Below are positions 7,951-48,539 of a DNA stretch of 64,000 bases, piece after piece. A program made the translations under genes and the position numbers. Position 1 is the first letter of the stretch; every line of letters begins with the position of its first letter. Source of the DNA: Trypanosoma brucei (Eukaryota); assembly GCA_000002445.1 (NCBI GenBank), contig CP000070.1, positions 2,048,001-2,112,000 on the forward strand, given 5' to 3'. Under the pieces are notes generated by a model. The model was not told where the DNA came from. It was given only the letters and a program-made list of their open reading frames with translations, and did not search any database.

Positions 7951-8008
<58 letters not shown>
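7929..8008. repeat. Compound microsatellite: (CCTA)n about 6 copies followed by (AC)n about 27 copies.
   Basis: The sequence reads cctacctacctacctacctacctac then acacac... to about 8007. Confidence 0.95.
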
Positions 8009-8013
<5 letters not shown>

Positions 8014-10567: not shown

Positions 10568-11248
10568 ACCGGCGGCAGCGCTGACAGCGTCCTAAGCGGG
10601 AATGTCGCAACAGGCTGAACAGAAAACACTAGTTTGCGTAAGCCCGTCCACTCGGTCCCCTTCTCTCTCTTTTTTTTTTAAATCTTAAAAAGAGAATAAT
10701 TCCTACTATCTTCTCCCCCTTACCTATCACAGCGTCTCCTGAGTCAGGGCCTCTACCGTGTCTTACTTTATTACAAACTCAACTTATTCACCTACAACCC
10801 AAATGACACTACCACCGCAACTTTCCTTTATTTTTCAAAAGCTTTCCTTATTTATAATATTTGCTACCGTGTTCACTAGTTACTACGCTCCCGCGCTTGA
10901 GCGACTGCAAGTCCTGCGTATCCCGATCACCCCTTAAGCGAGTGCTAGAGAAGGAACCGAGGAAAATAAATATTTGTGAATTTGTACACACACAAGTGCA
11001 GACGGACGTAAGGACAAGACCGGATATGTTGGCGTGTAGTGGCAAAAAAAATAAATAAATAAAAATAATGAAACCCACCCGTCCCATCTTGTTACGGCCG
11101 GAGTGGACGTTACCCTTGTGACAGTGACGCGCGCAACAAATGGAAACACAAACCGTGCTGCACTATGAAGAGAAGAGGAAGCATACCGCGATCCGTCCCC
11201 CCTTTTCCCAATGGGGAAAAGGTGTGAGAATTGAGTGGATGGAAAACG

Positions 11249-11320
11249 TGGACGAGTAGGGGATCAAACCCTAGGCCTTCCGTATGCGAAACGGATGCTC
11301 TACCACTGAGCTACACGCCC
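11249..11320 (-). tRNA. tRNA-Ala (anticodon CGC), 72 nt without CCA, with two non-canonical positions (U6•U67 mismatch and U56 in the T-loop).
   Basis: The minus-strand sequence GGGCGTG-TA-GCTC-AGTGGTA-GAGC-A-TCCGT-TTCGCAT-ACGGA-AGGCC-TAGGG-TTTGATC-CCCTA-CTCGTCC-A folds as a cloverleaf. The A box TAGCTCAGTGG is canonical. The anticodon loop has U33-CGC-A37. The G3:U70 alanine identity pair and the A73 discriminator are present. The B box reads GGTTTGATCC rather than GGTTCGATCC. Confidence 0.7.
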
Positions 11321-12752: not shown

Positions 12753-14963
12753 TTACCAACCGTGACGATTCTTAGCGGACTCGAGCACCACGACAGGCGT
12801 ACGCACTGTGTGGATCTTCGGCGGTATCGGCATGTGGTCGCAGACAATCTCCTTGCAGTCAGTGAGTGTGCATGGGACACCGATTATATCATCCAAGCGT
12901 ATTGAGCCACACCGTTCCAGCAGTAACTTCCCAATGGCCTTTTGGGACGCCAGCTTCTTGAGGCCCTCCGCTGCAATAGGGATGGCGCAGAGTCTCAGAA
13001 CGCAAGACCGGATGGCACTTTTGTCGGCACTGATTTTTTCGAGTAACTCGCAGTCACTCAAACTCAACTCCTCGAGAGTCTTTATGGCAAATACAGGATC
13101 AACGTGTGTCAAGTGCTTGGCGTTTCTCACACATAGCGACCGCAGTGCTTCACACCGCGAGAGGTCTTCAATTTCCTTATTCCCCACGAAGGGACCCTCG
13201 AGTATCAACTTGCTGAGCTCCGGCAGCGAGGCGATGGCAGCAAATTCGGAGACGCTGCGCAGCCCACAAATATACAATTCCCTCAGTTTCTTCGGCGATG
13301 CCAACTTCGATACGTTCAGCTCCCCACCACAGTACCAGAGTCGAAGGCACGTGAGATTCGTGGCCGACTCACAAATGGTTTCCAATGTGGTGGTGGAAGC
13401 AGACCCGCTACACAACCCGAGGGTCTCCAATGGAGATCTCCGCCCGGGGAACACCACCTCGGGTGAGTCATCCAAAAACAGCCTGCGTAGATTCCGCAGG
13501 GATGCGATGTCCTTAGAAGTCTTTTTACTGAGTGTCGAGCAGAATCGCAGGTCGACTTCGCTCAGGGATGTGCTGTACAGCTTTCCCACACATTCATCAG
13601 TCACCGCAGTAGCCCGCAATAGGAGCTTCTCCAGCGGTGGCGCACAGTCCACAGGGCCAACAATTCTTGCACGACTGCATAGGCTGAGGTCCAACACCTT
13701 CAGCGACCTCAGGTTGGTCAATGGGCTTATGTCAACAATTTCCTTGTTCCCGCTGAGGATCACCTCCTCGAGCGTAGTGAATGCTGATAGTGCCTTCACA
13801 TCGGCATCCGTTACGCCGCTATTCGTCAGGCGCAACACACGAAGTAACGGCAGCTCGGTTCCCCACTCGAACGTAGAACGAACACCCACATTGTCAAGAC
13901 ATAACTCCACCAATTTCTTGCAGTTTTTCAGTGAGATCTTGCTATGCACCGCCGAGCAATCCCCAAGCCGCAGCACCTTTAACGACACACAATCATGAAA
14001 ATACTCGACAAGTCCATTGCCAACGATAAGGGAGGTTCCGGTAATAACCAATCGTCTGAGAATTGGCCACGTCAGTGTGTCAGTGAAGGCATTCATGTTG
14101 GGACAGTTCTCAATGGTGATGCTATCGAGAAACAGGGCATTCCCTAAGAATTTGGCATCCTGTAACATCGAGATATTCTTCATTACAATCTCACGCAGTT
14201 TCTCAAGGGACTCCACACCTTTCTCCCATTCGTTATCCAGCCGTGTACCATGCAGGATAAGCGTTTGGAGGCAGGGGAATTTACCGATACACGACATGTT
14301 GGCTACAGCACCCGGCCCGATTTCCAACAGGTATAACCCTTGATTGTTGAGTAGCTCGAGGTCCAGGCGTCCACAACACCGTCGGAGGCGCAATTCTCCC
14401 ACATCGCCCTTTAGTGATGAGAGTTCTTTCAGATTAAACCCCGGGTCGTCGACAACAATCACGTCTGCGGGGTCATCACATTCAAGTGGTGCGTTCTTAT
14501 CGCAGTTTATAACTGCCTTCCACGTGACTGGTCGTCTCCGATATTCATCATACTCTTCCCGCAGCTTTTCGTGTTCCGCTGCCACCATATGGACATGATT
14601 GCGCAGTTCTGCGACCTCCTCCCGCAGCTTCTCCACATCTTCATTGGTTACCATTTGTTCCTCACCTTCAGAGCGGCTTCGCTTCGCCATCGCGCCTCCC
14701 CCTTTGCCTTTTGTATTTTTGGTGAGGGAAAGAGTGTGGATTGTGTAAAAAGGTGGAAAGGGCGATTTGAGTGACGTAAGAAAGGAAGGCTTGGGGAAGA
14801 AGTGGAGCTGCACACCCAGCGACTTTGGACAATACAAACGGGTGTAACACTGTGCTGAGAATGCTTTCACCTTCTCTCTGCTTAACTCTCCCCATGCATT
14901 TGGCCGTGAGCACCAGATATCCCTTCGGATGCTGAGAATGGCCTCTGAGGAACTGTGCACCAC
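12753..14963 (-). CDS. Leucine-rich repeat protein with N-terminal coiled coil and ESAG8-type LRRs (LRRP1-like), 736 aa.
   Basis: 736-aa ORF. The N-terminal heptad region is VEKLREEVAELRNHVHMVAAEHEKLREEYDEYRR. It is followed by about 20 repeats of the L..L.L..C..I.D.S.L type, for example LEELSLSDCELLEKISADKSAI and LRVLRLGDCSAVHSKISL. Confidence 0.7.
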   Translation of the reverse strand: MVHSSSEAILSIRRDIWCSRPNAWGELSREKVKAFSAQCYTRLYCPKSLGVQLHFFPKPSFLTSLKSPFPPFYTIHTLSLTKNTKGKGGGAMAKRSRSEGEEQMVTNEDVEKLREEVAELRNHVHMVAAEHEKLREEYDEYRRRPVTWKAVINCDKNAPLECDDPADVIVVDDPGFNLKELSSLKGDVGELRLRRCCGRLDLELLNNQGLYLLEIGPGAVANMSCIGKFPCLQTLILHGTRLDNEWEKGVESLEKLREIVMKNISMLQDAKFLGNALFLDSITIENCPNMNAFTDTLTWPILRRLVITGTSLIVGNGLVEYFHDCVSLKVLRLGDCSAVHSKISLKNCKKLVELCLDNVGVRSTFEWGTELPLLRVLRLTNSGVTDADVKALSAFTTLEEVILSGNKEIVDISPLTNLRSLKVLDLSLCSRARIVGPVDCAPPLEKLLLRATAVTDECVGKLYSTSLSEVDLRFCSTLSKKTSKDIASLRNLRRLFLDDSPEVVFPGRRSPLETLGLCSGSASTTTLETICESATNLTCLRLWYCGGELNVSKLASPKKLRELYICGLRSVSEFAAIASLPELSKLILEGPFVGNKEIEDLSRCEALRSLCVRNAKHLTHVDPVFAIKTLEELSLSDCELLEKISADKSAIRSCVLRLCAIPIAAEGLKKLASQKAIGKLLLERCGSIRLDDIIGVPCTLTDCKEIVCDHMPIPPKIHTVRTPVVVLESAKNRHGW

Positions 14964-15714: not shown

Positions 15715-18700
15715 TTACACTCCGACACTGCCGGGCCGTGTTCGCCGGAACTTTGGCTGCGACAGGCGCTCCGACAAGCAGCGCTGCGCCTCTACGGCTT
15801 TGGGCCCGTGCGGTATCTCTCGGATTAGGACATACGGCCTGCCTTGCTCGTCCAGCTTTACCTCCTCTAAAACCACTACGGAGGTTGACGATGTGTCCTC
15901 ATTCCTTTTCCCCTCCTGTGATATTGTCCGCCTTATACTCCGGCGGCGCAGTAGAGGGGAATCTCCTGTATCCTGCCGCCCTGAACAGCTAAACGCTCGT
16001 GTTGGCTGCCACGTTGATTTTCTTCTCGCCGACGTGGACGAAAGCTCCCTTAGTAGCAGCCTTGTCACATCTGCCGTGCGACGGGTGCCACCGCATGAGC
16101 TTACGCTCATACTGCGCGCAGGATCCGTTCTTTTCGATGGCGTTGGACCCGTTCGATCCCGCCGCCGGTCGTGGGCAGCGCTGAAGTTGGAAGCATGTGG
16201 TGCCCGAACATTCCTAACCGGAGTATTGGACCCGGCGCTTGATGAGCTGCGAGGCCTAAACGCCCAGCGGAGGTCTACTACGGGAATGGCAACGCCGCCC
16301 ACATTTCGCTCGGTGGTGGCTGCTGAGGGATCACTGCCTTCCGGCCCGGTCTTTCTAGAGGTTCCTGTCGGCGCGTCATCCATCCACGAGGCTGAGGTGG
16401 ACAGAGAGCCGGGCACGCGACCACTAATACGCTCATCGCTCACGTGGAGCTTTTCAGCACATTGTCTACGCGAGCGTTGCGATTCTTCCTTACTAGGTGA
16501 CCTGCAAGTTTCCCGTTGTGTCTCGAAAACTGACGGCTTGCACGGAGAAACGTTTGTGGAAAGTTTCTTGTCGGGGGGCACTGTGGAAGATATGCATCCA
16601 TCTGCGTCGATGACCCTCGCTGGTGCCTTCAGGTTACGGTCTCGTTTCAAACCGTCAGCATCTGATGGGGCTGCAGCCATGCCGGCTGGTGTTCTGCGTC
16701 TCTCCGCGCTACTATGACCACTCTCAGCTGCACGGGTTCCCCTTCCCTTGCGTGTCGAGTCCCGTGTCTCATCTTTGGGCTCGGCAGATAGTCTCCGTTC
16801 TTGCATTTGGCTCGCCTTTCGCTGGCTCAGATTTTTATGCAGGTCAGCTGCACCGTCGCCGCGGGCGTGGCTACGTCTACGTGCCATATGGCTGCACCTG
16901 TGCGTGCAGGTTGAGCGGCAACAGCAACAACTGGGTGAGCGGTCGAATGTGTGTGACGCGCGACGTGGGCGGTCTGCCCGGCCCGAATCACTGGAGCGAC
17001 ACCGGTCGCTCGTGTAGTTGTCTCTGGTGCTCATTGAGCGCGAGGACCTCCTTCTTCCACCACTGACGTACCCCATCGAAGACGGAGGAGGAGCACCGGG
17101 CAACAGGAAGTCCAAACAACCTCTGCCGTGCCTCCACGGGGACCTCCTTTCTTCCCCTTCGTGCATGTATCCGGTGCAACGGCCGCCGTGGAGTGCTCGC
17201 CTGGTCGGCGTCCTCATGCAGGTTAAGCGAGAGGACTTGTGCCTACGCGATTCTTCCATCTCTTGCTTAAGCAGAAAGTACAACTTGTACACGTCTGTTG
17301 CACGGAATATAGAGGATGGCGAAGAGGAACGATCGTTATGGGAGGCACCACGGCTACGCCCATGCGCTTTAGTCCTACGTTGCCCCCTGTCGGTGTAACC
17401 GTGCGTGTGGCCTGGCTGATGCCCACCATGCTTGTCTGGTGAAGTTCCCCCCTTGTCACATTTATCTCCCGAATATGATTCCACGGATGCATCGCTGTCG
17501 GTGTCACTGTCTTCTTCCTCTTCCCTCTCGTCTTCGCTGCTGTCGGGTTGCGGTGGCCTCCGTTTCTTATTCTGCCCTACACGGCAATCAACCAATTTGG
17601 AAGCTGAAGGCTTACGCCGTGGCGAAGGTTTCTTCACCGGACTCGAAGTGTCCTTTTCCCTTTCCTTAGTACGACCGCGACTGTGACGATCGTTGGCTCC
17701 TACTGGTGTGGCTCTTTTGCCCGAGCTGGACGGACTGCGATTTGGTTCCCTGCAGTTCGTTGCCGTGCTCTTTACTTCCCGTAGGACCTCCTCACCTCGT
17801 TCGGACGCTATTTCACCGTGGTGGGAACGTGGGGGATGCGTGGACCGCTTATCCTCTCCCCGCGTGCCGCCGTGTTCTCGCTCATCTGTGGCATGTTTTC
17901 TATTCGGTTCGGGACTCTTGGCCTTCTGAATTTCTCGGATTACCCTTCCCGCCCCCGCTCTAGAGGTGTTGACAGTGGGTGACACATCATTACTTACTGT
18001 CTCTTTCTTTTGAAAAGAAGTTACACCACTTCCCGTTGTGGATGCCCCTGTGCCAACACCACTTTTAACCACGGGCTGGGGTGGTGTTGGAGTTTCTTTG
18101 GGGGTGACGGCAGGGGAGGGGATGCGTTCCTTAGTAGGCTGAGTTTCTTCGTGCTTCGTTTTCATTGGGGCGGTGCCCTTTACTGGCGCCGCATGATTTG
18201 CGAAAGGTGCGGGGGTTTCCAAACTTTTGGCCTCAGCTGGAGCTTCTTTGACAACAGGTTCAACATTATCAGCACGTCTCGGTGCCTGCGTTGCGCTACT
18301 TTCCTGATTTCGACCAGTCATACCGCGGCGATCGTCTGACTTTTTTACTTTCTCCGTGGTCGTCGGGATCTCTACTGTTGCCCGCTTCTTGGCCTTCGCG
18401 TCTACCTCCTCGGAGTCCGAATCTGAATCGGAGTTACGGGGGCGGGGCACCGGCATGGACATGATGGGTTTCAGCTGCGCGTTGCGGTTGCGCTGATTAC
18501 CAATACCAACAGCACTGAGTCCGTCACTGCTGCTGCTGTCATCATCTAAAGCTCTTGTTGTAGATAAAGAGGCTGTCGCTCCCTCATCCTTCTGCCTCCT
18601 TTTGTTCGTTTGGTTTTTCTCGTGAGAGGCGGACTGGATCTCCCGGGAGGAAACGGGGTTGGATCTTCGTTTCCCACTGGAACAAGGTGTGTCGGCTGCC

Positions 18701-19671: not shown

Positions 19672-20787
19672 TAAGGAGGCGGCGGAAGAAACCGGAAGAA
19701 AATCGCCCTAAAAGGATTCCCGGCTCTTCCTAGCTCCTCGTATTCCTGGCTTGCACTTCGTATATATTTGTATAAATCTATATCTCTCAGTATAAACAAT
19801 TATGTATATGTGTGTCTATCTATAGTTTACTTTCCTTCTCTGCCTCAGCCTTCCCCCTGGCTGCAGAAGGCTCGAAACAGGTTTACTTAATATATATGTT
19901 TGCAGTGAAGGGTAAAGTGGGAAGAGGGTTAATGTAGAAATGGAAAGGAGGGTGTTTGACTGAACGCCAAACTACTTTCCACGCACACCTCTAAGTAGCA
20001 GAGGAGGAGGGTGTGCAAAAACAAACACACACACACACGCAGAAAAAGGAAGCGGGAAATGGGCCGATACGGTCATTTTTTTTTTCAAAATTAACTTGCT
20101 TATTGCTTCTTAGTTTGTAACTAAAGAAGATGTCTGGGGCGGGGATGGCAACATATAGCCACTCGAATTGTGCAAAGGTTGGCGCGGGGGCGCCCTCTTA
20201 CGCTATACACTTCATTTTTACCTCCTTCATTTTCTGAAGAATTCTGTGCGTAAGGTACAACAAATATCAACATTCAGTTTCTATCGAAACCAACTCAACG
20301 TATGCCTGAAAAAAAAAATATCTATGCGTTCTAACCCCCATACAAATGTCAAAACAAAAAAAAAACACACGTACGGGGCCATGTTTCTATGGCACATATA
20401 TGATAGGAGAACAAAGAAAGCCATTGCTGTCTGCGTCACCCCATTCCACTCCCTCTTTTTCTCCACTCAGCAGCATGCCCTGTGGCGCGGGGGAATGATA
20501 TCTGCTGCGTAAAGATTCTACATTCCTTTCCCTTTCCTCCCTTTCGGCGGCCGCATCAGCTGTTCGGTCGTCACACGTCGTGGAGTGTGTTTGCTCCCAC
20601 CCTCACCAGACAATTGCCGTTTTGTAAGCGGCACCTGGACCGGCCATCTTGTACCATATCCCATCTCCCAATGGAGTACTACGTGATGTCTCGCCATATG
20701 CTTCCCCACTCTCTGACGCTTAAAACGGCGCCACGTATCGGCATGCGTGCGTCATGTGCCACACTTTGGACATTTGTTCGCGACCGC

Positions 20788-23700
20788 TCAAGCAGCACGC
20801 ATAGATTTGGGGAATCTGAAGGCCGGACCACCGTGGGTCTCGGTAGGGTACGGGTGGTAATATTCACCGGGACCCACGCCATTGCCTGCTTCAAACTCAG
20901 CGAAGCGATCGGCAGAAGCGAATGTGAAGGCAAGTACGGTGGGTCTTGCGTCAACGGGGTGGTGATATTCACCGGGACCGGGTGCGTCCTCCTGGGCAGA
21001 TTCCAGCGTCATAGAGCGTGGCCCCCTGCCGAAGGTAAATGCGGGGCCGGGTTTTAAGACGACTGGGCCACCTGTTAGATATGCCCCCGGTCCTGGAACA
21101 TCTTCTGCTCTGCACTGCACCTCCCGCTCCGCTGCCCCAAACGGTACGGCCTTTTGGTTTAGTGTGGAAGGGATAACGTACGCTGCAGGCCCGGGTGTTG
21201 CGTTCACCCGCACTTCAAATACGGCTGTCGAATCAACGGTGGGCAATGGACCGAAGGAAACTGCACGAGTTGTTTCGGTAGGTCGTGGACAATAGGCACC
21301 GGGGCCAGGGACATCTTCCGTTTGGCGGCCATCGCCGTACGTTGGTTTCCCTTTCAGAGTGAAGGCGGGACCTGAATGGCATTGCTGCATGTATCGATCC
21401 GTGTCGTAACTTCCGGGCCCAGGTAAACCATCACTGTTCTCGGCAGCGCCCGATGGCTTCCCCTTCACCGTAAAAGCTGGTCCCGGTTTAAACTGTTCTG
21501 CGTAGCTGCTTACGTTGTAGCTTCCGGGACCGGGGACGTCGGCGTCGACCCCGTCGCTGGTCACTTGTTTTCCTTTGAGCGTGAAGGCAGGGCCCGACTG
21601 AAATTGTTCCGTATAGCGGCTAACGTCGTAGCTACCGGGGCCAGGTACATCGGCGCTACCTTCAACTTGGGATGCTTTTCCTTTCAAAGTAAAGGCTGGG
21701 CCCGCCTGACACAGTTCCATGTAGCGATTGATATCGTAACTGCCAGGTCCCGGAGCATCAATACCATTCTCGCCATTATACGTGGCCTTGCCCTTTAGGG
21801 TAAACGACGGCCCTGCGTGGTGTTGTTCGAGGTAACGATTCGGATCGTAGCTCCCCGGACCTGGAGCGTCAGCTTCGTTGTCGTTTTGCGCTGATTTTCC
21901 CTTCAAAGTAAATGAAACCCCCGACTGACACTGCTTCAAATATCGATTCACATCGTAGCTTCCCGGCCCAGGAACGTCGCCATCGGCACTGTTACTGTTA
22001 AACGCATCCCTCCCTCGGAGAGTGAAGGCAGGACCCGCTTGACACCGCTCCAAGTACTGACTGGCATCATAGCTTCCAGGACCAGGGATATCAGGCCCCT
22101 TCTGCCCAGTGTCGCTTGGTTTCCCCCTTAACGTGAATGAAGGACCTGCCTGAGACTGTTCCATACAGCGATTGATATCATAACTGCCAGGTCCCGGAGC
22201 ATCAATACCATTCTCGCCATTATACGTGGCCTTGCCCTTTAGGGTAAACGACGGCCCTGCGTGGTGTTGTTCGAGGTAACGATTCGGATCGTAGCTCCCC
22301 GGACCTGGAACGTCAGCTTCGCTGTCATTGCCATTACACGCACCTTTTCCTCGAAGTGTGAACGCGGGTCCTGACTGAAACTGCTCCAAGTATCGGTTCG
22401 CATCATAACTACCGGGGCCGGGAATGCCAGCACTGTTTTCGTCAACGCAGGTTGGTTTTCCCTTCAACGAGAAGGCGGGGCCCATTTGGCACCTTTCCAA
22501 GTAGCTACTCGCGTCATAGCTTCCGGGACCGGGGACGTCAGCATCATGTCCGCCGACGGGGGCTGCTTTCCCTCTCAATGAGACCGACGGGCCGGCTTGG
22601 CATTGTTCGAGATAGCGATTTGGGTCGTAGCTTCCCGGACCAGGAACATCACCATTGCCACTGCTGCCGTTAAATGTACTTTTCCCTCGAAGAGTAAACG
22701 CACGACCCGCCCTACTTTCATCTATGTAGCGACTTGCATCGTAGCTCCCAGGACCAGGAAGGTCACCACCGTTTTCATTCTGTCCTGGTTTACTTTTAAG
22801 AGTGAATGCGGGCCCAGCTTGATATGCGTTCAGGTAACGGTTCGTATCGTAGCTACCGGGCCCCGGTACATCGGCATCTACCGTGGGGGCTTTCATGCGC
22901 TCTTCAGCACCAAAGGAATAGGTGTTGCCCGCTGTGGTGTTCCAGGTAGAGGGGATATCATAATCACCAGGTCCAGGACGCGATGAAGCATCATTCAGCT
23001 CTGCCGGCGAATGGCGCGGTGCCTGTGGGAACGACACACCATCCTTCGTACCTCTGGCCTCTGCGGGACTGTACGACGCCGGACCTGGACTCTCTCCCAC
23101 TGCGCCACCGCTGAGCCCAGGGAAGCGCTCGCTCGTGAAACGCATCGCTACGCCACCGTCCACAATACTCCCAAGCCCTCCACTGCTGACCTCGTAGTGA
23201 CCTGGTCCTGGCTGTTCTCTGAGATCGTTATTGTTGGCACCAACCCCTGTGGCAACACGGGGCGCTCGACCAATAAAGGGCCCTGAGGTCCGTTGCGCCG
23301 ATTGAATGCTGTATGCACCGGGCCCAGGTCCTTCGGTTTGGGCAGCTTGGCCATCTGGGAACCGCGCAGCCTTGACAAATGAAGTGGCCCCGCTCCCACC
23401 ATCGACCGCAGGAAATGCGGGCTGCACCGAGTACGTGCCAGGGCCTGGAAGTTCGGCTTTTTGCATATCAACCGCCATGCGATCCTGGGCAGCAGCCCGT
23501 CCGATGGAATACGCTATCCCCTCACGGTTTTCCACCCTTAGGTCGTAAGAACCTGGCCCTGGGGCATCTTCAATGCCACCCGTGTTTGCTACGTCCCTTT
23601 GTGCGGTGCCAAAAATAACGGAAGGTGTATCCGTCGGCAGCGCAGGGTTGTAGTGTCCAGGTCCCGGATGGTTTTGTCCACTGAGGTTGTTCAAACCTCC

Positions 23701-26700
23701 GCTTGTTTGGCGCGGCCCAATACCAAAGAGAGCTGCTGTTGCCGTTAGTGAGGGTTCTTGTGGGCTATATGTTCCTGGTCCGGGCCCATCCGTTCCTAGA
23801 GTGAGCGAAGCGTTTCTTCCTCCCATGGGGAAAGAGTATGCTTGGGAAGAGTCCCATTGCGGATGGTGGGGCATGTACTGCCCGGGTCCAGGGGCTTCGT
23901 CCTCCCCTCTCTCGGTTGCAAAGCGAGGACTTATGGGAAAGGCGGAAACAACGGCTCGGCGATGAGATAAATCTTCCCCAGTGTAGTCGTACTGCCCAGG
24001 CCCAGGGACGTCGCTTCCCTCAAGACTGGGCGCCTCCCGGGTAGCTGTGGGGAAGCGATAGACAGGTGCCGTCGGTGACGTTGTACGCGACGCCCCAACA
24101 TTATACGTTCCTGGTCCCGGCCCTTCCTCATGGTTCAAAGAACCCAAGGCACGTGGTTCGACACCGAACCGTGTGCCTGTAGCTGTGAGTGTGGGGATGG
24201 TGACATCGTAGGCTCCGGGGCCGGGTGTGGTTCCATCGTTCTCGGTAGCATCCTGTGGCATGCGAGGTTCCACTCCAAAAGAGTAGGCTGCTCCACCTAC
24301 CTTGGTGCTTAGGTCCTCCGGATGATATTGGCCAGGCCCGGGAAGAAGTGCGTGTTCTCGTTCCTTCAGATCGAGGACACGTGGCCCCCTGCTGAACACA
24401 GGAACACCAGCAGCCGCTGTGAGGGTTCCACGATCTTCTATTGAATAGTATCCAGGTCCCGGAGTGACGTCGTTGTCACCACCTGCAGCAGCCCCCGCAA
24501 CATTGTCGAACCGGGGTGCTGTTGTGAAGGAGACCGGACCGACTGGTGACGCGCCTCCAGTGGTCGGGTCTAACGAATACGCTCCGGGTCCCGGGATGCT
24601 CCAACTGTCTTCATGAGACTGTAGACGAGGTGCCATGCCAATTATGGCGGAGCGCGCACAAGAGGCCTTGCTATCGTGGGGATTGTAGTGACCCGGACCA
24701 ACCGCCAACTCGCCGTGCCGCTCCTCCTGTATTCGTCCATCCGCGGCGCTACCGAACGTGGTGTGAAAGGTGTGCGGGACGGGAAGGATAACTTCGTATG
24801 ATCCTGGACCGACACCGGGTCGCATAAGCGCTTCACGCTCTTCTGGTGATGTCGGGTGTTGCGGCGACGAACCAAAGACTACACCTGGGATCGTGCGTCC
24901 ATGTGGGTCTTTTGGAGCATACGCCCCAGGACCAGGGACAGCCTCTGCGGGATCAGCCCGCTGGGACGGTTTGCCACAAGATATGCCGAAGTTCACGACA
25001 TTAGTTGGGGTTGGGCTCTGCCGAGTGTCATATGCTCCAGGACCCGGTACCTCATTAAGTGTATCGGCAGCAAACCTGGGACCGGCGCTCCACACTGCCC
25101 CCGATGCAGGACCTTTAGGCACTTGGGGATCGTATGAACCTGGTCCAATCCCGTCGTTGCCATCGTGGTTCCCCACGGAGTGGTCGATGGTTAAAAGGCG
25201 TGGCTCTGTGCCAAACACTGCCGCCCCCCTGTACTCCGGAGGTCTCTCTATTGTGTAGGCCCCTGGTCCTGGGACATCTTGACGATCTTTTTCCCCACCG
25301 CTAGTCTGAAACCTTGCAGCTTCACCAATCACAACGGCCCGGGTGTTCGGCATCGGATCTTGTGGATCGTATTCTCCGGGTCCGGGAACTGACACACTGG
25401 GCTCTGGGCCGTCAAGTTTCTGACCGATTGAAAAAGACGGGCTATTCTTCGGCATGGCGATCTCGTACGCACCCGGGCCTGGTTTTTTTGCAGCTTCATC
25501 CTCGTTGAATGGTAATTCTCGTGGGGCACTTCCGAAGACAGCGGCACGGCCCCTCGTTCCCACATCCCCACAATCAGCATCGTAGTGTCCTGGTCCGGGG
25601 GTGGCCACCACACCGGCAGCCCCTTCAGCACCCGGTTCGCTACTCTCCGCAAATCGCGGTGCGGCGGCATTTAATAGAGGCGACACGACCCGTGGCTCCT
25701 GTACAGTGGTAAGTGCTGTGTAAGTGCCTGGCCCCGGCACATCAGCACAGCAGTCGAAGCCAAGCGTTGATACTCGTTGTGCGGTACCCATGATGGCAGA
25801 CCGCACGGGACTGGTCTGTCTCTCTGTCTCGTAAGTTCCCGGTCCGGGGAGCGTCTCAGCAACTTTCGTCCCTTCGTGCAGCACACGCGGCGCTGTAGGG
25901 AATAAGGGCGCAGAGGAATGCGAATGTTTTAGCTCATATGTGGAAACACTGTACTCACCAGGTCCTGGGGTAGGATGGGGCTCGAGAGGTGCCGAGGGCG
26001 ACTCCGACACAAGCCACCGTGGACCGGTAGACATTTGTGGCAATTCGTAGTGGCCGGGACCAGGCGTTGTATCCACCCGCTCTGCTGGTCGGCGTCCCAT
26101 AAGGTAGGCTGGACCACTTTCCCTCCTGACGGGTTCATATGCCCCAGGTCCAGGTACTTCATGAGGGGAAGTGCGCTCCTTGCTCCACGGAGATCCACCA
26201 CGTCTTACGTTCGTTATCACGGCACTGCGACCACTGACGGCTGTGCACCTGTCGCTTGGCACAGAAGCGGTATCGTACGTGCCTGGACCTGGTACGTTCG
26301 CTGGTTCAGAAGGTGGTGAAGAAGTGAGTGGCACTCGTCCATAACGTAGTAACTTCGCACGACCAAATGAGAAAGCAGGAGGGCTCCTCCGCCGCGCGTC
26401 GGAGAGTGTCGCGGCTTCTGGGTGATATTCGCCAGGTCCTGGTATGAGCACCGCCTCCTTTGTGGGAAGTATAGAAAGCTGACGACGACTACTCGATAGG
26501 GTGCGGGCACTTTTCTTTGATGAGGTTTCTGTCATACTCTTTTCCTTGACGTCGTACGCTCCGGGCCCGGGAAAATTATTGACAGCATGCAACTTTCGTT
26601 CTGCCCGTCCAATTAGCACCCCCCCAGTGGCCGTTTTCCCGGGGGACAATGCAGACATACCTAATTCACCAGACACATCGTACGCCCCAGGACCCGGTGA

Positions 26701-27975
26701 CACCCCCGCCGAGGCACCATCAACTCGTTTTGTTGGTTTCAAGTATGAAGGCACGCTGCCATGTACGTCTGAGTCTCCCACTGCCCGCTGACCGCTTCGG
26801 ACTTCCTCCTCACTTCTGCCGCGCCTTCGTTGACTGGAGCGGTGCTTCGGATGTGTATTAGTGTCAGATGTGTCTACAGCGAAAATAGTGCACCGAGGTG
26901 AAATTCCGAATACGGCACCCCGATTGGAGAGCCGTCCTACAAGCCGCGGCGACACCACCGAGGGAGATTTCTGAAAACTATCATGTGCCTTTGTCGCACC
27001 GCTTTTTTTGTTGCTATTTTTCTTTGTGCTGCTGCCGCAAGGTTGAGCAGCCTCACTGCCGGAGTTGCTGCGGCTGCTGGTGTGATCGTCATTGTCCCCC
27101 TCTGTACACACTGTTCTCAGTGACTGACAAGGGCAGTCGGACGCGTGAGCCGCGGGATTCTTCGGTGCGTCGATATCAGGCATTTGCTTCCAATAACACT
27201 GACAGAGTATTTCCATTTGTCTCTTGAGTAGCTCATTCTTCTCCGCCTTCTGTTCCACCACCTCAACCCCCGTGTGATGTGGACCGCTTGTGTGACTTTT
27301 CTTACTATGCCCAGCTTCAGCACCCCGTCCGCGGTAGCAGTCCCCACTGTCGTTATTGCTGTCATCCGCAATGAAGTACGATCCGGGCCCTGGTGACGTA
27401 TCTTTTCGTATCGGTTCAGACATCCCCTTCCGACCACTTCCGAATGTAGATGGGGGGAAGCGATGCTGTGAACTTCTAGTGACCGTAGCAGCATTAACCA
27501 CCCGACCAGTCGGAGTGCTATAAGGTATCTTCACTTTCTCCGCTGATGCCTCATGAGGCCGACGGCACTTTGTAGCAGCCAACTGGGAGTTGTGACGACG
27601 AACGTGCTGGCATCCGGAAGACGCCTTGGGGCCCATGGACGTGCACTCGTGAGCACACGAGCACCCACATTGAGATGCGCAAGTCTCTGCAGCTTCGTCA
27701 GGCTCCTTCGTCTCCGTTGCTGGAAGTGCGCATCTTGTCTCTGGTTTTGGTGGTGCCGCTGATGCGCAAGAGGACGCAGCCTGCGTACCTCGCTGCTTGA
27801 AGTGGTGAGCTGCCCCGCGCGTGGGAGCCCCTTTTCTGGCTGCAGCCGCTTCCTTCTCCATTATCATATCGACGGAGGCCAAAATACTCGCGTACATAAC
27901 ATCTACTTGCGCTTGGACATCGTTCACATCGACATCATTCTCCTTCACTAGCGACAACTTACTGTACGTATCCAT
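20788..27975 (-). CDS. Giant sperm-tail PG-rich repeat (STPGR/SHIPPO-like) protein, 2395 aa. It has more than 60 PGPG[SAET]Y motifs and a regular C-terminal tandem array.
   Basis: 7.2-kb ORF. The motif [VIL]PGPG.Y recurs throughout (FPGPGAYDV, IPGPGEYHP, VPGPGTYDT ...). The C-terminal third has about 14 near-identical ~38-aa units: DVPGPGSYDxNRYLEQxQAGPAFTLKGK + ~10 aa. Confidence 0.8.
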   Translation of the reverse strand: MDTYSKLSLVKENDVDVNDVQAQVDVMYASILASVDMIMEKEAAAARKGAPTRGAAHHFKQRGTQAASSCASAAPPKPETRCALPATETKEPDEAAETCASQCGCSCAHECTSMGPKASSGCQHVRRHNSQLAATKCRRPHEASAEKVKIPYSTPTGRVVNAATVTRSSQHRFPPSTFGSGRKGMSEPIRKDTSPGPGSYFIADDSNNDSGDCYRGRGAEAGHSKKSHTSGPHHTGVEVVEQKAEKNELLKRQMEILCQCYWKQMPDIDAPKNPAAHASDCPCQSLRTVCTEGDNDDHTSSRSNSGSEAAQPCGSSTKKNSNKKSGATKAHDSFQKSPSVVSPRLVGRLSNRGAVFGISPRCTIFAVDTSDTNTHPKHRSSQRRRGRSEEEVRSGQRAVGDSDVHGSVPSYLKPTKRVDGASAGVSPGPGAYDVSGELGMSALSPGKTATGGVLIGRAERKLHAVNNFPGPGAYDVKEKSMTETSSKKSARTLSSSRRQLSILPTKEAVLIPGPGEYHPEAATLSDARRRSPPAFSFGRAKLLRYGRVPLTSSPPSEPANVPGPGTYDTASVPSDRCTAVSGRSAVITNVRRGGSPWSKERTSPHEVPGPGAYEPVRRESGPAYLMGRRPAERVDTTPGPGHYELPQMSTGPRWLVSESPSAPLEPHPTPGPGEYSVSTYELKHSHSSAPLFPTAPRVLHEGTKVAETLPGPGTYETERQTSPVRSAIMGTAQRVSTLGFDCCADVPGPGTYTALTTVQEPRVVSPLLNAAAPRFAESSEPGAEGAAGVVATPGPGHYDADCGDVGTRGRAAVFGSAPRELPFNEDEAAKKPGPGAYEIAMPKNSPSFSIGQKLDGPEPSVSVPGPGEYDPQDPMPNTRAVVIGEAARFQTSGGEKDRQDVPGPGAYTIERPPEYRGAAVFGTEPRLLTIDHSVGNHDGNDGIGPGSYDPQVPKGPASGAVWSAGPRFAADTLNEVPGPGAYDTRQSPTPTNVVNFGISCGKPSQRADPAEAVPGPGAYAPKDPHGRTIPGVVFGSSPQHPTSPEEREALMRPGVGPGSYEVILPVPHTFHTTFGSAADGRIQEERHGELAVGPGHYNPHDSKASCARSAIIGMAPRLQSHEDSWSIPGPGAYSLDPTTGGASPVGPVSFTTAPRFDNVAGAAAGGDNDVTPGPGYYSIEDRGTLTAAAGVPVFSRGPRVLDLKEREHALLPGPGQYHPEDLSTKVGGAAYSFGVEPRMPQDATENDGTTPGPGAYDVTIPTLTATGTRFGVEPRALGSLNHEEGPGPGTYNVGASRTTSPTAPVYRFPTATREAPSLEGSDVPGPGQYDYTGEDLSHRRAVVSAFPISPRFATERGEDEAPGPGQYMPHHPQWDSSQAYSFPMGGRNASLTLGTDGPGPGTYSPQEPSLTATAALFGIGPRQTSGGLNNLSGQNHPGPGHYNPALPTDTPSVIFGTAQRDVANTGGIEDAPGPGSYDLRVENREGIAYSIGRAAAQDRMAVDMQKAELPGPGTYSVQPAFPAVDGGSGATSFVKAARFPDGQAAQTEGPGPGAYSIQSAQRTSGPFIGRAPRVATGVGANNNDLREQPGPGHYEVSSGGLGSIVDGGVAMRFTSERFPGLSGGAVGESPGPASYSPAEARGTKDGVSFPQAPRHSPAELNDASSRPGPGDYDIPSTWNTTAGNTYSFGAEERMKAPTVDADVPGPGSYDTNRYLNAYQAGPAFTLKSKPGQNENGGDLPGPGSYDASRYIDESRAGRAFTLRGKSTFNGSSGNGDVPGPGSYDPNRYLEQCQAGPSVSLRGKAAPVGGHDADVPGPGSYDASSYLERCQMGPAFSLKGKPTCVDENSAGIPGPGSYDANRYLEQFQSGPAFTLRGKGACNGNDSEADVPGPGSYDPNRYLEQHHAGPSFTLKGKATYNGENGIDAPGPGSYDINRCMEQSQAGPSFTLRGKPSDTGQKGPDIPGPGSYDASQYLERCQAGPAFTLRGRDAFNSNSADGDVPGPGSYDVNRYLKQCQSGVSFTLKGKSAQNDNEADAPGPGSYDPNRYLEQHHAGPSFTLKGKATYNGENGIDAPGPGSYDINRYMELCQAGPAFTLKGKASQVEGSADVPGPGSYDVSRYTEQFQSGPAFTLKGKQVTSDGVDADVPGPGSYNVSSYAEQFKPGPAFTVKGKPSGAAENSDGLPGPGSYDTDRYMQQCHSGPAFTLKGKPTYGDGRQTEDVPGPGAYCPRPTETTRAVSFGPLPTVDSTAVFEVRVNATPGPAAYVIPSTLNQKAVPFGAAEREVQCRAEDVPGPGAYLTGGPVVLKPGPAFTFGRGPRSMTLESAQEDAPGPGEYHHPVDARPTVLAFTFASADRFAEFEAGNGVGPGEYYHPYPTETHGGPAFRFPKSMRAA
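21310..22880 (-). repeat. Intragenic tandem array of ~114-bp units (about 14 copies) encoding the STPGR repeats. It includes a ~98%-identical ~150-bp duplication (≈21721-21880 vs ≈22161-22320).
   Basis: Nucleotide strings such as cgattgatatc[g/a]taactgccaggtcccggagcatcaataccattctcgccattatacgtggccttgccctttagggtaaacgacggccctgcgtggtgttgttcgaggtaacgattcggatcgtagctccccggacctgga recur about 440 bp apart. The encoded peptide repeat is seen directly. Confidence 0.8.
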
Positions 27976-28514
27976 ACAAATGTCCCTGCGTGATAGTGTG
28001 AATTATTGAAAAAGATAAAGGCAACAATGTAGCAATCAGTGGTTTTAGGGGAAACGGTACTTGCACGCGCAGCGACGCACGGAAGGTGGTGGGGACAAAC
28101 AAACAAGTGCCGCCCCTACAATAATAGTAATAATAACGATAATAATAGCGGTAATATAGGGGGTAATAACAGATTCCAAGGAAACGTACGCTCAAAATTC
28201 AGAAGGTGCTTTGGTCTGCAAGCAGTAACTCACCGTGGATTAATACACACGGTTTCATACTAGCAACTCAAGAAAAGCACCTGCACTTGCACATGCATGA
28301 AAAATAGAAATAAAAAAAAATTAAAGTAATTTGAGAAAATAAGCAACCGTAACCGTAAATAATGAAACTACTGCACCGTCTCAAATAATTCATTCGTACC
28401 GAACCCTCCTAAGAGAAAAAAAAAACGTACGACGCAAACACATCCCTCTCAGAACCATTCCTTCCCTGCGTTAATCCGCGTCGTTTCCCCTCCTTTTCCC
28501 CACGTCTGCTTGCT

Positions 28515-35472: not shown

Positions 35473-36450
35473 TCAGAAGCGATTCCATCGGACGAGACTT
35501 CCCGTGCTAAATCTCGGGCTCCGCACGGGCGGTTTCCCCTGCTCATCTGCTTTCTTATACCCCACACTGATAATAACGGGCACGGTGTAGCGCTCCGGCA
35601 AGCCCACAACCTCCCTAACTTTCGCTTCATCGAAACCTTCAAGAATTGCCGTATCCAATCCAGCAGCTGTGGCGGCGTAAATAAATGTTGTGGCGGGGAT
35701 CATTGCCTGCTTCCACGCGTAACCTTGCATTGTTGTGGGCACTGACAGCAATGGCGTCCCGGTGGCGTTGCTATACCAGGAGGAGATGCATGACTTTGCC
35801 TTTGCCATTGACCCAAACGGACCCCCGTGGAGATGATAGTACACCAACCGCAAATATGCAGCACCGTAGAGTGGATGATAGTAACCACTGTTGAGACCTA
35901 GTTCCAGTGCTGCAGGGGCCCTCCACTCGGGCTCCATGTCACCAGCAAACACTACAGTGACAGGGGCTTCACGGGGTTGCGGCTGGTCGAGCGCTGCATG
36001 CGATAAAGCACCCCGTTGCGATGTCTCATGTACGACAATGGCAACCCATGGCTGCAGGTTGAAAGCGGTGGGTGCCCGCGTAGTGGCCTCCAGCAGGCGC
36101 GCGATAAGAGTGTGGTCGACGGGACGTGAGCTGTCGAACCGCTTGCTGGAGTGACGTCTTTCCACAACACGTATAAATGCATCAAGTGACTTGCGCGATG
36201 CCTTTGAATAATATGTGGGTGGGATCCTATCTGGTTCCCTCGGCACCTCCTGTGCGGTGGCGGCGATGCTGGACCTCAGGAAAGTGAAAAACCGGGATAT
36301 GCCCGAGCCCCACGTCTCGTAGGGTGAGGTGCTATTCTGTGAATTAGTGGCAGACAAGGCGGCACCTGCATTCCACTTCCAGTATGAACGGAGGGATTTT
36401 ATGACGCCCTGCCAACGGCAGCGGCTCACGTTCATCTCGAGAGGGGACAA
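35473..36450 (-). CDS. Bacterial-type nitroreductase family protein (type I NTR-like), 325 aa, with a basic N-terminal presequence.
   Basis: The nitroreductase-fold signature RRHSSKRFDSSRPVDHTLIARLLEATTRAPTAFNLQPWVAIVVHETSQRGALS matches the R.S.R.F...P(V/I)....l..il.aa..APS..N.QPW.f.vv pattern. The N-terminus MNVSRCRWQGVIKSLRSYWKW is Arg/Trp-rich and resembles a mitochondrial targeting peptide. Confidence 0.75.
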   Translation of the reverse strand: MSPLEMNVSRCRWQGVIKSLRSYWKWNAGAALSATNSQNSTSPYETWGSGISRFFTFLRSSIAATAQEVPREPDRIPPTYYSKASRKSLDAFIRVVERRHSSKRFDSSRPVDHTLIARLLEATTRAPTAFNLQPWVAIVVHETSQRGALSHAALDQPQPREAPVTVVFAGDMEPEWRAPAALELGLNSGYYHPLYGAAYLRLVYYHLHGGPFGSMAKAKSCISSWYSNATGTPLLSVPTTMQGYAWKQAMIPATTFIYAATAAGLDTAILEGFDEAKVREVVGLPERYTVPVIISVGYKKADEQGKPPVRSPRFSTGSLVRWNRF

Positions 36451-48400: not shown

Positions 48401-48539
48401 GTTCAAAGGTATGCTCCACGGAGTAGTTTTGCGTGTCATCAGCACCCCGTACAGAACCAACACCGTTAAGGGGACGCGGAAGACCCTTCGCGGCCGGACG
48501 GATGCGGAGGAACACGCGAATACCCTCCGACTTCCCCAT
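45414..48539 (-). CDS. Kinesin-like motor protein with N-terminal motor domain and long coiled-coil/low-complexity tail, 1041 aa.
   Basis: The P-loop FAYGQTGSGKTHSI, switch I NKTSSRSHCVF, switch II VDLAGSERVAKTG and neck-region motifs all lie in the first ~370 aa. The ORF begins at 48539. Confidence 0.85.
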   Translation of the reverse strand: MGKSEGIRVFLRIRPAAKGLPRPLNGVGSVRGADDTQNYSVEHTFEHSTVRFHVDRRTDADVVNNTREDFTFTFRRAFEPNATQADVFNTVAKDCVLAALDGYNSTVFAYGQTGSGKTHSITGGAESYEDRGIIPRALALLYEEIARRQQQEGTYSVAISYLQIYNDKGQDLLNRGHDARKLEDLPVVTIHDGGSDSDEVALRGLAQHSAATPKDALNLLFLGDTNRLYCETPMNKTSSRSHCVFTIYLEARPHGASVVRRSKLHFVDLAGSERVAKTGVSGTVLTEAKYINLSLHYLEQVIMALSEQANGRREHVPFRNSFMTMVLRDSLGPNCKTSMLATAHPAVDQLPETISTCRFAQRVALIKQDAHVNEEVDPHVLVRKLKAELQQMRDRLAFYTKDGGGAPDRDLSDDEKLRCEEMVKRFIAATDGNAKLEGFDGDLARIYYCFDVLKRMLAEGGAGVRVGGCGAGSSGGLSEQQQQQLDMYRSRVDALELCVKQKENEMNMLFDALQKVHRAKYNAETQTGADDGESSNYASRTKTAPGTGGSVEGGHAAPFQKPLGHPSNGAHMYASAAAAQQPHGMNVVEAGHSSNAGSIRYDGQDSPQALRRMACERLAPAEVTAVDEFFEKQQQLNEVYDLSSLTDAELLQDRATAFEAFSRSYRQCAQMESNKQELKARYETCKTTARQLNEVVDQIRKLKGCIQRLRAERVLQGVEEVDEAERNALEELAAHKTSYNDLAASLRQQKESIDAMHLFMKRAQEQLTKDFEDWLQIRQKQLIMAVKAGGYKNADSSGSSNGVSIASNTTTMSNNIATPQVNPTTTAAVTTATIPPPTEKAPPTAAAASPGRPTCFKPRLNFLQEQMQSKQQLGEQKPASASMPDLPPLREGLSSRRSWGCDGGMQLRGGLLHTGGLGSAPTHTRASSDTECGRLHHSVPATLSQQSTPNNRLGQPSTMVPLGGSALRNGWTGGSSSGAINDNNGNGYGVTSGISAGGAGLDAPNPYAPEYRSTGDPAADKQLAELYKARDALRLQLDPPQ

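What the first reader, a model, noticed from the sequence alone, without database searches (positions are those of the whole stretch)
20788..27975. Giant STPGR (sperm-tail PG-rich repeat) protein with an evolutionarily young, near-perfect tandem array
The 2395-aa ORF is built almost entirely of PGPG[SAET]Y motifs, the hallmark of the SHIPPO/ODF3/STPGR family, which is axoneme-associated in other eukaryotes. The C-terminal third (≈21310-22880) contains about 14 units of ~38 aa. These are so similar that whole stretches are duplicated at over 98% nucleotide identity (≈21721-21880 and ≈22161-22320). Both copies encode PNRYLEQHHAGPSFTLKGKATYNGENGIDAPGPGSYDINR. This implies recent unequal crossing-over of a ~440-bp higher-order unit about four repeats long. 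Such arrays are usually copy-number polymorphic and are often collapsed in assemblies, so the true protein may be larger. In a trypanosomatid the product is a strong flagellar/cytoskeletal candidate.
Basis: partly seen in the sequence, partly recalled or inferred. Interest (0 to 1): 0.55.

Follow-up and report, generated by a model that had tools for sequence, protein, structure and literature searches.

The report
Giant flagellar PG-repeat protein, old array

Summary
The ORF (20788-27975, minus strand, 2395 aa) is real. It is 100% identical to T. brucei TREU927 XP_846340.1, inferred to be Tb927.7.7200. Pfam PF07004 hits at E = 3e-135. There are 53 PGPGxY-type motifs, 52 of them contiguous at about 38-aa spacing.

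The family call and the flagellar guess hold. Tb927.7.7200 is listed in a published DRC1-APEX2 axoneme proximity proteome and in earlier flagellar proteomes.

The "young, near-perfect array" claim does not hold. The 14 units average 62.6% nucleotide identity, third codon positions are 37% identical (near saturation), and TRF finds no array. Only one stretch is near-identical: 21714-21882 against 22158-22326 (164/169, offset 444). Its edges are sharp, and the rest of the supposed 444-bp unit is at background identity.

TREU927, T. b. gambiense and T. equiperdum all have a 7188-nt CDS. Four of seven variants near the patch switch to the paralogue's base. This fits short-tract gene conversion, not unequal crossing-over, and gives no sign of copy-number variation.

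The array comes from amplification of one ancestral unit: one copy in T. vivax, T. cruzi, T. grayi and T. theileri, six in T. congolense, 14 in T. brucei.

Likely function, by analogy with Tetrahymena STPG1A: a filamentous microtubule-lattice binder about 0.4 µm long. Low novelty.

The parts
20788..27975 (-). Complete CDS including the stop codon: a 2395-aa giant STPGR protein. It equals T. brucei TREU927 XP_846340.1 / UniProt Q57XU0 and is inferred to be Tb927.7.7200.
   Evidence: ORF and translation. 100% identity to P0001. PF07004 E = 3e-135. Gene ID inferred from the TrypTag primer anchor for Tb927.7.7190 at 15757-15797 and from gene order up to the kinesin Tb927.7.7260.
26698..27975 (-). 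N-terminal region, aa 1-426. It is non-repetitive and low in complexity, with one isolated PGPGSY motif at aa 195-200 (window 27376-27393).
   Evidence: Motif map. Pfam reports only SHIPPO-rpt for the protein and the motif map shows no repeat units here apart from the isolated one.
20791..26697 (-). 52 contiguous STPGR units (aa 427-2395), each PGPGxY followed by a spacer of about 32 aa. Median spacing is 37-38 aa.
   Evidence: Motif positions and spacings. Pfam SHIPPO-rpt matches in 14 stretches.
21310..22866 (-). Sub-array of 14 related units (aa 1704-2222) with consensus PGPGSYDxxRYxExxQxGPAFTLKGK plus a variable linker of 9-12 aa. It is a lineage-specific amplification of one ancestral unit.
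   Evidence: Unit list. Identity matrices: 62.6% nt and 57% aa. Codon-position identities 68/74/37%. Orthologues carry 1 unit (T. vivax, T. cruzi, T. grayi, T. theileri, T. melophagium, T. conorhini) or 6 units (T. congolense).
22158..22326 (-). Near-identical patch, copy A (CDS nt 5650-5818). It covers the end of unit 5, all of unit 6 and the start of unit 7 of the sub-array.
   Evidence: 164/169 identical to copy B at offset 444, with sharp edges.
21714..21882 (-). Near-identical patch, copy B (CDS nt 6094-6262). It covers the end of unit 9, all of unit 10 and the start of unit 11.
   Evidence: Same alignment. The patch is present in T. b. gambiense and T. equiperdum, with tract-edge variants that switch to the paralogue's state.

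Best explanation
The locus is the annotated T. brucei gene inferred to be Tb927.7.7200. It encodes a 2395-aa protein made of one isolated and 52 contiguous sperm-tail PG-rich (STPGR/SHIPPO) units.

Function (inferred by analogy). Cryo-EM of Tetrahymena STPG1A showed that each P-G-P-G-x-Y motif docks in the wedge between two protofilaments. The roughly 40-aa spacer carries the chain 8 nm on to the next tubulin dimer. By that model this protein would be an extended, non-globular filament lying along a flagellar microtubule, with a footprint of about 52 x 8 nm = 0.4 µm. It would act as a lattice staple or spacer rather than an enzyme.

History of the C-terminal array (shown). The 14 units arose by amplifying a single ancestral unit in the T. 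brucei / T. congolense lineage after the split from T. vivax. The amplification is old: synonymous sites are near saturation. The protein sequence is kept by purifying selection.

The near-identical DNA (shown in part). It is a single patch of about 170 nt between two units four positions apart. The most likely origin is short-tract intragenic gene conversion that is still shifting its edges among T. brucei subspecies. It is not a recent unequal crossover, and copy number is the same in the three available assemblies.
For: Family:
- PF07004 E = 3e-135.
- 53 motifs with median spacing 37-38 aa.

Identity:
- 100% match to XP_846340.1.
- The TrypTag primer for Tb927.7.7190 maps to the 3' end of the neighbouring ORF.
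- Gene order fits Tb927.7.7240 (LRRP) and Tb927.7.7260 (kinesin).

Flagellar association:
- Tb927.7.7200 is in Table S1B of PMC8141408, i.e. in the DRC1-APEX2 detergent-pellet proximity proteome and in earlier flagellum proteomes.

Mechanism template:
- Kubo et al. [quoted passage not shown]
- AlphaFold2 on aa 1667-2065 gives no confident fold (mean pLDDT 46.5). This is compatible with a chain that is ordered only when bound.

Old array:
- 62.6% nt identity between units.
- Codon-position identities 68/74/37%, and identical residues share a codon in 37.5% of cases.
- TRF finds nothing.

Amplification of one unit:
- Six other Trypanosoma orthologues have a single unit between conserved flanking units.
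- T. congolense has 6 and T. brucei 14.
- The last T. brucei unit is closest to the single-copy units of the other species.

Gene conversion:
- 164/169 identity with abrupt edges.
- No lag-4 signal elsewhere in the array (p = 0.53).
- 4 of 7 inter-strain variants in the patch zones are switches to the paralogue's base (CDS 5796, 5819, 5822, 6093), P about 2e-5.
- CDS length is identical in three assemblies.
Against: - Microtubule binding, the 8-nm register and the exact location (which doublet, inside or outside, axoneme or other flagellar microtubules) were not observed for this protein. They rest on analogy and on proximity proteomics. About a quarter of the proteins in that proteome do not show a flagellar TrypTag localisation (PMC8141408).
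- No TrypTag localisation for this gene could be retrieved, because the stored supplement is truncated.
- The protein is not among solved-structure chains. The only PDB hit is a different 476-aa STPGR protein, 9y6s_4F, at E = 6e-15.
- The direction of the paralogue-directed variants is unknown because there is no outgroup. Positions 5819 and 5822 are probably one event.
- DAL972 may not be a fully independent assembly (from memory, it was scaffolded on TREU927). None of the three assemblies is known to me to be long-read.
Confidence: 0.72

Rival explanations
1. The array is evolutionarily young and was generated or extended by recent unequal crossing-over of a ~440-bp four-unit higher-order repeat. 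It would therefore be copy-number polymorphic and possibly collapsed in the assembly.
For: Two stretches 444 nt apart (exactly four units) are 97% identical. T. congolense carries two amino-acid-identical copies of a three-unit block, so block duplication does occur in this gene family.
Against: - Only 169 of the 444 nt are similar; the remaining ~275 nt are at the 58-70% background.
- There is no lag-4 excess once the converted pairs are excluded (p = 0.53).
- Synonymous sites are near saturation across the array.
- TRF finds no array.
- Three assemblies have the same 7188-nt CDS.
- A 169-nt repeat is too short to collapse Sanger reads (inference).
Confidence: 0.06
2. The protein is a microtubule-lattice binder of a structure other than the axonemal doublets. 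Candidates are the subpellicular corset, the FAZ microtubule quartet, the basal body, or an extra-axonemal structure analogous to the outer dense fibres, where mammalian ODF3/SHIPPO1 was first described (that is, the paraflagellar rod).
For: T. brucei has other giant repetitive MAPs with 38-aa units (MARP-1) on subpellicular microtubules (PMC2289396). About 25% of DRC1p-proteome proteins lack a flagellar TrypTag annotation. No localisation image was retrieved for this gene.
Against: The gene is listed among proteins found both in the DRC1-APEX2 proximity proteome and in earlier flagellum proteomes. STPGR proteins resolved structurally so far sit on ciliary doublets.
Confidence: 0.2
3. The near-identical patch is an assembly or consensus artefact of the reference genome.
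For: Repeats can be mis-joined in assemblies.
Against: The same patch is present at the same position in T. b. gambiense DAL972 and T. equiperdum OVI. Each carries private substitutions inside or beside the patch (CDS 5760/6204, 5790, 5796, 5819, 5822, 6093).
Confidence: 0.02

Closest known systems
Tetrahymena STPG1A / STPG2 and ODF3L proteins (Kubo et al. 2023, PMC10105768)
   Same: Same Pfam repeat (PF07004). Same P-G-P-G-x-Y motif with ~40-aa spacers, which that cryo-EM study showed to be a microtubule-binding motif with an 8-nm register in the inter-protofilament wedge of ciliary doublets. Also flagellum-associated.
   Different: Those proteins carry 5-12 motifs and span 48-96 nm. This one carries 52 contiguous motifs, about 416 nm if the same register applies. 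No structure or localisation exists for it. Whether any segment passes into the lumen, as in STPG1A and STPG2, is unknown.
Mammalian ODF3/SHIPPO1 (CIMAP1) family
   Same: It is the founding member of the STPGR repeat family and a sperm-tail protein (named from the Pfam description, and from my own knowledge).
   Different: These are small proteins (a few hundred residues, from my own knowledge) originally assigned to outer dense fibres. One-to-one orthology was not tested here and is unlikely given the size and architecture.
Giant STPGR orthologues in other Euglenozoa (T. congolense, T. cruzi, T. vivax, Leishmania, Phytomonas, Diplonema, Rhynchopus)
   Same: Proteins of 1700-3400 aa with 33-63 PG motifs at 33-48-aa median spacing (one outlier at 62 aa), all PF07004 only. 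The flanking units align unit for unit within Trypanosoma.
   Different: T. brucei has 14 copies of one particular unit, where the other Trypanosoma have 1 and T. congolense has 6.
T. brucei MARP-1/MARP-2 (Hemphill et al. 1992, PMC2289396)
   Same: High-molecular-weight trypanosome MAPs built of tandem 38-aa units that are themselves the microtubule-binding motif. Same unit length and the same 'one unit per lattice repeat' logic.
   Different: These decorate subpellicular rather than flagellar microtubules. From my own knowledge the repeat sequence is unrelated and the units are nearly identical to one another; neither point was tested here.
PDB 9y6s chain 4F, 'Sperm-tail PG-rich repeat' (476 aa)
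   Same: The only solved-structure chain with significant sequence similarity (E = 5.9e-15), aligned over query aa 1927-2340 through shared PGPGxY units.
   Different: It is a different and much shorter protein. The similarity is confined to repeat motifs. The tool did not report its organism or its position in the structure.

Membership tests
STPGR / SHIPPO-rpt (Pfam PF07004) | Significant match to the PF07004 HMM above the gathering score | tested here: met
   431.8 bits against a cut-off of 20, E = 3.1e-135, 14 reported stretches.
STPGR / SHIPPO-rpt (Pfam PF07004) | Repeated P-G-P-G-x-Y motif separated by spacers of about 40 aa (Kubo et al. 2023) | tested here: met
   53 motifs, 52 contiguous, median spacing 37-38 aa, interquartile range 36-39. 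The motif definition comes from PMC10105768.
STPGR / SHIPPO-rpt (Pfam PF07004) | Association with cilium or flagellum microtubules | not testable with these tools
   Indirect support only. Tb927.7.7200 is in Table S1B of PMC8141408, which lists DRC1-APEX2 proximity proteins also found in earlier flagellum proteomes. No localisation or binding data were retrieved.
Young tandem array or higher-order repeat made by unequal crossing-over | Units near-identical at the DNA level across the array | tested here: not met
   Mean identity 62.6% nt. Only 1 of 91 unit pairs is identical. TRF returns 0 rows. Third codon positions are 37% identical.
Young tandem array or higher-order repeat made by unequal crossing-over | Similarity extends over the whole higher-order unit (444 nt), with periodic lag-4 excess | tested here: not met
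   Identity is confined to 169 nt with abrupt edges. The lag-4 mean is 0.595 against a permutation mean of 0.596, p = 0.53, after removing the converted pairs.
Young tandem array or higher-order repeat made by unequal crossing-over | Copy-number differences among isolates | tested here: not met
   TREU927, DAL972 and T. equiperdum OVI all have a 7188-nt CDS and 2395 aa. Caveat: only three assemblies, and none is confirmed to be long-read.
Intragenic (ectopic) gene conversion tract | A short patch of near-identity with sharp boundaries inside otherwise diverged paralogous units | tested here: met
   164/169 identity, a 129-nt exact run, and flanks at background identity.
Intragenic (ectopic) gene conversion tract | Population or strain variants that switch to the paralogue's state at tract edges | tested here: met
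   gambiense copy A at 5819 A>T and 5822 C>G (aa QS>LC). equiperdum copy A at 5796 T>C. gambiense copy B at 6093 C>T. All four equal the other copy's base: 4 of 7 variants, P about 2e-5. Polarity is unresolved.
MARP-type repetitive MAPs of trypanosomes | Sequence homology to the MARP 38-aa repeat | not tested
   Only the unit length (about 38 aa) and the microtubule-binding logic were compared, from the abstract of PMC2289396. No MARP sequence was compared. This is treated as a functional analogy, not as membership.

The most novel reading that the evidence does not exclude
The protein may be a lattice-bound length standard for a flagellar microtubule, with a length that differs between lineages. 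Amplifying one 8-nm module adds 13 modules (about 104 nm, roughly one 96-nm axonemal repeat) in T. brucei and 5 modules (about 40 nm) in T. congolense, relative to the single-unit state in other trypanosomes. Purifying selection on all 14 diverged units would imply that the added length is functional. It would make this a natural allelic series for testing how STPGR filaments set or read out axonemal periodicity.
Probability: 0.1. Interest if true: 0.5.

Novelty: already known. Interest (0 to 1): 0.2.

Why it matters
Mostly this clears up a misreading. The gene is a known, annotated STPGR protein that has already been detected in T. brucei flagellar proteomes. Its repeat array is not a young, unstable satellite-like array.

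The modest new points are three:
- One particular STPGR unit was amplified from 1 to 6 to 14 copies in the T. congolense and T. brucei lineages, and the copies are maintained by selection.
- A clear footprint of short-tract gene conversion is still shifting among T. brucei subspecies.
- If the published 8-nm-per-unit rule applies, this is a microtubule-bound filament about 0.4 µm long. That would make it one of the longest candidate lattice staples in a genetically tractable flagellate, and a reasonable target for tagging and cryo-ET.

Tried and rejected
- Tandem Repeats Finder on 20000-28500 and on the whole window found no array in the gene.
- The higher-order (lag-4) periodicity test was negative after excluding the converted pairs.
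- A look-up of the TREU927 protein in the contig index returned nothing. T. congolense DNA was also not on record, so nucleotide identity of its 2 x 3-unit duplication could not be checked.
- Literature searches for Q57XU0, STPGR or SHIPPO with trypanosomes, Tb927.7.7200 and its neighbours, and Leishmania chromosome-5 IDs found no main-text discussion of this gene.
- The stored TrypTag supplement (PMC9981465) is truncated and has no row for Tb927.7.7200. It did give the primer that anchors Tb927.7.7190.
- The supplements of Beneke et al. 2019 (L. mexicana flagellar proteome) are truncated, and no orthologue row was found.
- AlphaFold2 single-sequence prediction of aa 1667-2065 gave mean pLDDT 46.5. 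That is too low for a fold search, so none was run.
- The bacterial promoter/terminator scan does not apply to a trypanosome polycistron and was ignored.
- The assembly-artefact explanation for the patch was rejected because the patch recurs, with private variants, in two other assemblies.
Full report
**1. Observation**

The window holds an ATG-initiated ORF at 20788..27975 on the minus strand, 2395 aa. It carries 53 PGPGxY-type motifs. One is isolated at aa 195-200. The other 52 run contiguously from aa 427 to the C-terminus with a median spacing of 37-38 aa. Pfam SHIPPO-rpt / 'Sperm-tail PG-rich repeat' (PF07004) matches at 431.8 bits, E = 3.1e-135, against a gathering score of 20.

Between aa 1704 and 2222 (window 21310-22866) there are exactly 14 units of 36-38 aa. 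Their shared consensus is PGPGSYDxxRYxExxQxGPAFTLKGK followed by a variable linker. So the ORF, the motif content, the number of units and the duplicated peptide are all real.

**2. The array is not near-perfect**

- Tandem Repeats Finder returns nothing for this region.
- The repeat finder puts the 91-nt unit cores at 62-71% identity.
- An all-against-all comparison of the 14 units gives a mean of 62.6% nucleotide and 57% amino-acid identity.
- Only one pair, the 6th and 10th units at aa 1890 and 2038, is identical.
- The near-identical DNA is one stretch: 21714-21882 against 22158-22326, 164/169 identical, with a 129-nt exact run at 21737-21865 = 22181-22309.
As printed those coordinates give 32/160; at offset 444 they give 155/160.
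- Against the 62% background, the chance probability of the patch is about 8e-28.
- Identity collapses to background immediately on both sides.

**3. Age of the array**

On a codon alignment of the 14 units, with the identical pair excluded, identity by codon position is 68%, 74% and 37%. Columns with the same amino acid use the same codon only 37.5% of the time. Synonymous sites are therefore close to saturation, while first and second positions are conserved.

That pattern marks old duplicates held by purifying selection. A young array would not look like this. After removing the pairs touched by the patch, no four-unit periodicity remains: the lag-4 mean is 0.595 against a permutation mean of 0.596, p = 0.53. 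A recent unequal crossover of a 444-bp block would have made all 444 nt similar. Only 169 nt are.

**4. What the patch is**

The protein is 100% identical to T. brucei brucei TREU927 XP_846340.1 / Q57XU0. Its 90% cluster also contains the T. b. gambiense DAL972 and T. equiperdum OVI proteins, and all three are 2395 aa. I retrieved the DNA of the other two as L001 and L002. Both CDSs are 7188 nt, with 42 and 5 substitutions respectively and no indels.

The patch is present in all three assemblies. Seven inter-strain variants fall in the two patch zones. Four of them switch to the base carried by the other copy:

- gambiense copy A, CDS 5819 A>T and 5822 C>G. This turns EQSQ into ELCQ, as in copy B.
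- equiperdum copy A, CDS 5796 T>C.
- gambiense copy B, CDS 6093 C>T.

The chance probability is about 2e-5, or about 1e-4 to 1e-3 if 5819 and 5822 count as one event. Sharp edges plus paralogue-directed variants at the tract edges fit short-tract intragenic gene conversion, probably recurrent. Polarity cannot be assigned without an outgroup.

An assembly artefact is excluded because the patch recurs with private substitutions. Equal CDS length in three assemblies argues against copy-number polymorphism. The only near-identical stretch is 169 nt, so collapse is unlikely (inference).

**5. Origin of the array**

The orthologues were split into units and compared.

| Species | Units of this type |
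|---|---|
| T. vivax, T. grayi, T. cruzi, T. theileri, T. melophagium, T. conorhini | 1 |
| T. congolense IL3000 | 6 (two amino-acid-identical copies of a three-unit block) |
| T. brucei | 14 |

In the single-unit species the unit sits between the same conserved neighbours: upstream PGPGEYSIPS..., downstream PGPGAYCPRPVET... The last T. brucei unit (aa 2185, ...GKPTYGDG...) is the one most similar to those single-copy units. There is no one-to-one orthology between T. brucei and T. congolense units. The two expansions may therefore be independent or may have been homogenised.

The array is thus a lineage-specific amplification of one STPGR unit in the T. brucei / T. congolense branch. It is 'young' only on the scale of the genus.

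Giant proteins with 33-63 PG motifs also occur in Leishmaniinae, Phytomonas and diplonemids. The protein as a whole is therefore ancient in Euglenozoa.

**6. Gene identity and published evidence**

The C-terminal tagging primer listed by TrypTag for Tb927.7.7190 maps exactly to 15757-15797 (minus strand). That is the 3' end of the neighbouring 1318-aa ORF. Counting genes rightwards gives:

| Gene ID | Window ORF (start) | Product |
|---|---|---|
| Tb927.7.7200 | 20788 | this ORF |
| Tb927.7.7210 | 28515 | DUF4139 protein |
| Tb927.7.7220 | 31833 | no Pfam hit |
| Tb927.7.7230 | 35473 | nitroreductase-family protein |
| Tb927.7.7240 | 37380 | weak LRR hits; named LRRP in PMC8141408 |
| Tb927.7.7250 | 40432 | ankyrin-repeat protein |
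| Tb927.7.7260 | 45414 | KIF9-type kinesin; named 'kinesin, putative' in PMC8141408 |

From memory, Tb927.7.7230 is the type I nitroreductase, which fits.

Tb927.7.7200 ('hypothetical protein, conserved') appears in Supplemental Table S1B of Vélez-Ramírez et al. 2021 (PMC8141408). That table lists proteins of the DRC1-APEX2 detergent-pellet proximity proteome that were also found in earlier flagellum proteomes. No main-text discussion of the gene was found. The TrypTag localisation could not be retrieved because the stored file is truncated.

**7. Likely mechanism**

Kubo et al. 2023 (PMC10105768) resolved Tetrahymena STPG1A and STPG2 on native doublet microtubules. P-G-P-G-x-Y is a microtubule-binding motif that sits in the wedge between protofilaments. 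The roughly 40-aa spacers act as 8-nm spacers, so consecutive motifs bind consecutive tubulin dimers. On that basis ODF3L proteins with 12 motifs were proposed to span 96 nm.

The T. brucei protein has the same motif at the same spacing, 52 times in a row. The inferred model is an extended filament along one inter-protofilament groove of a flagellar microtubule, with a footprint of about 416 nm. The 13 extra units add about 104 nm relative to the single-unit ancestor.

What is shown: the motif, the spacing, the family membership and the proteomic association. What is inferred: binding, register, location and role as a lattice staple or spacer.

Two further results bear on this. An AlphaFold2 single-sequence model of aa 1667-2065 has mean pLDDT 46.5. 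That is compatible with a chain lacking an autonomous fold but proves nothing. The protein itself is not in the PDB; the only hit is a different 476-aa STPGR chain, 9y6s_4F, at E = 5.9e-15.

The main rival is binding to other microtubule sets or to an extra-axonemal structure. T. brucei MARP-1 shows that tandem 38-aa units also serve as the microtubule-binding motif on subpellicular microtubules (PMC2289396).

**8. Verdict**

| Claim | Verdict |
|---|---|
| Observation | partly confirmed |
| Family and flagellar interpretation | supported |
| 'Young, near-perfect, unequal crossover, polymorphic or collapsed' | not supported |

The gene is already annotated as an STPGR protein in public databases and is already in flagellar proteomes. 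The residual new points are the 1 to 6 to 14 unit amplification under purifying selection and a gene-conversion patch that varies among subspecies. These are incremental. Interest is low, about 0.2.

Noticed in passing
window 35473-36450 (-): A 325-aa ORF with a strong Pfam Nitroreductase hit (E = 2.7e-25). By gene order it is Tb927.7.7230. From memory that is the type I nitroreductase that activates nifurtimox, benznidazole and fexinidazole. It lies three genes from the STPGR gene.
   Followed up: partly
window 11248-11320 (-): A single tRNA-Ala (anticodon CGC) lies between the PHO80-type cyclin gene (8393-10567) and the LRR gene (12753-14963), on the same strand as the surrounding Pol II polycistron. 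ARAGORN and Rfam (63.2 bits) agree.
   Followed up: partly
window 15715-48539 (-): Five of eight consecutive genes are listed in the DRC1-APEX2 flagellar proximity proteome of PMC8141408: Tb927.7.7190, 7200, 7240, 7250 and 7260. The last of these, by gene order, is the KIF9-type kinesin ORF at 45414-48539. This may be a local cluster of flagellar genes in one polycistron. Enrichment was not tested statistically.
   Followed up: no
T. congolense orthologue P0002, aa 1672-1781 and 1782-1891: Two amino-acid-identical copies of a three-unit (110-aa) block. Its DNA was not on record.
   Followed up: partly
window 7953-8013: A nearly perfect (AC)30 dinucleotide microsatellite in the intergenic region downstream of the cyclin gene (TRF score 115).
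   Followed up: no
window 1-64000: Every ORF of at least 200 aa that had a Pfam hit lies on the minus strand. GC skew is negative in nearly every 2-kb bin (30 of 32). This suggests the window sits within a single directional polycistronic unit near the right end of chromosome 7; the gambiense locus is at 2.11 of 2.22 Mb.
   Followed up: no
window 20482-21057 (+) and 24770-25258 (+): ORFs of 191 and 162 aa with GTG starts lie antisense to the STPGR CDS. They are most likely by-products of the repetitive, GC-rich coding strand rather than genes.
   Followed up: no
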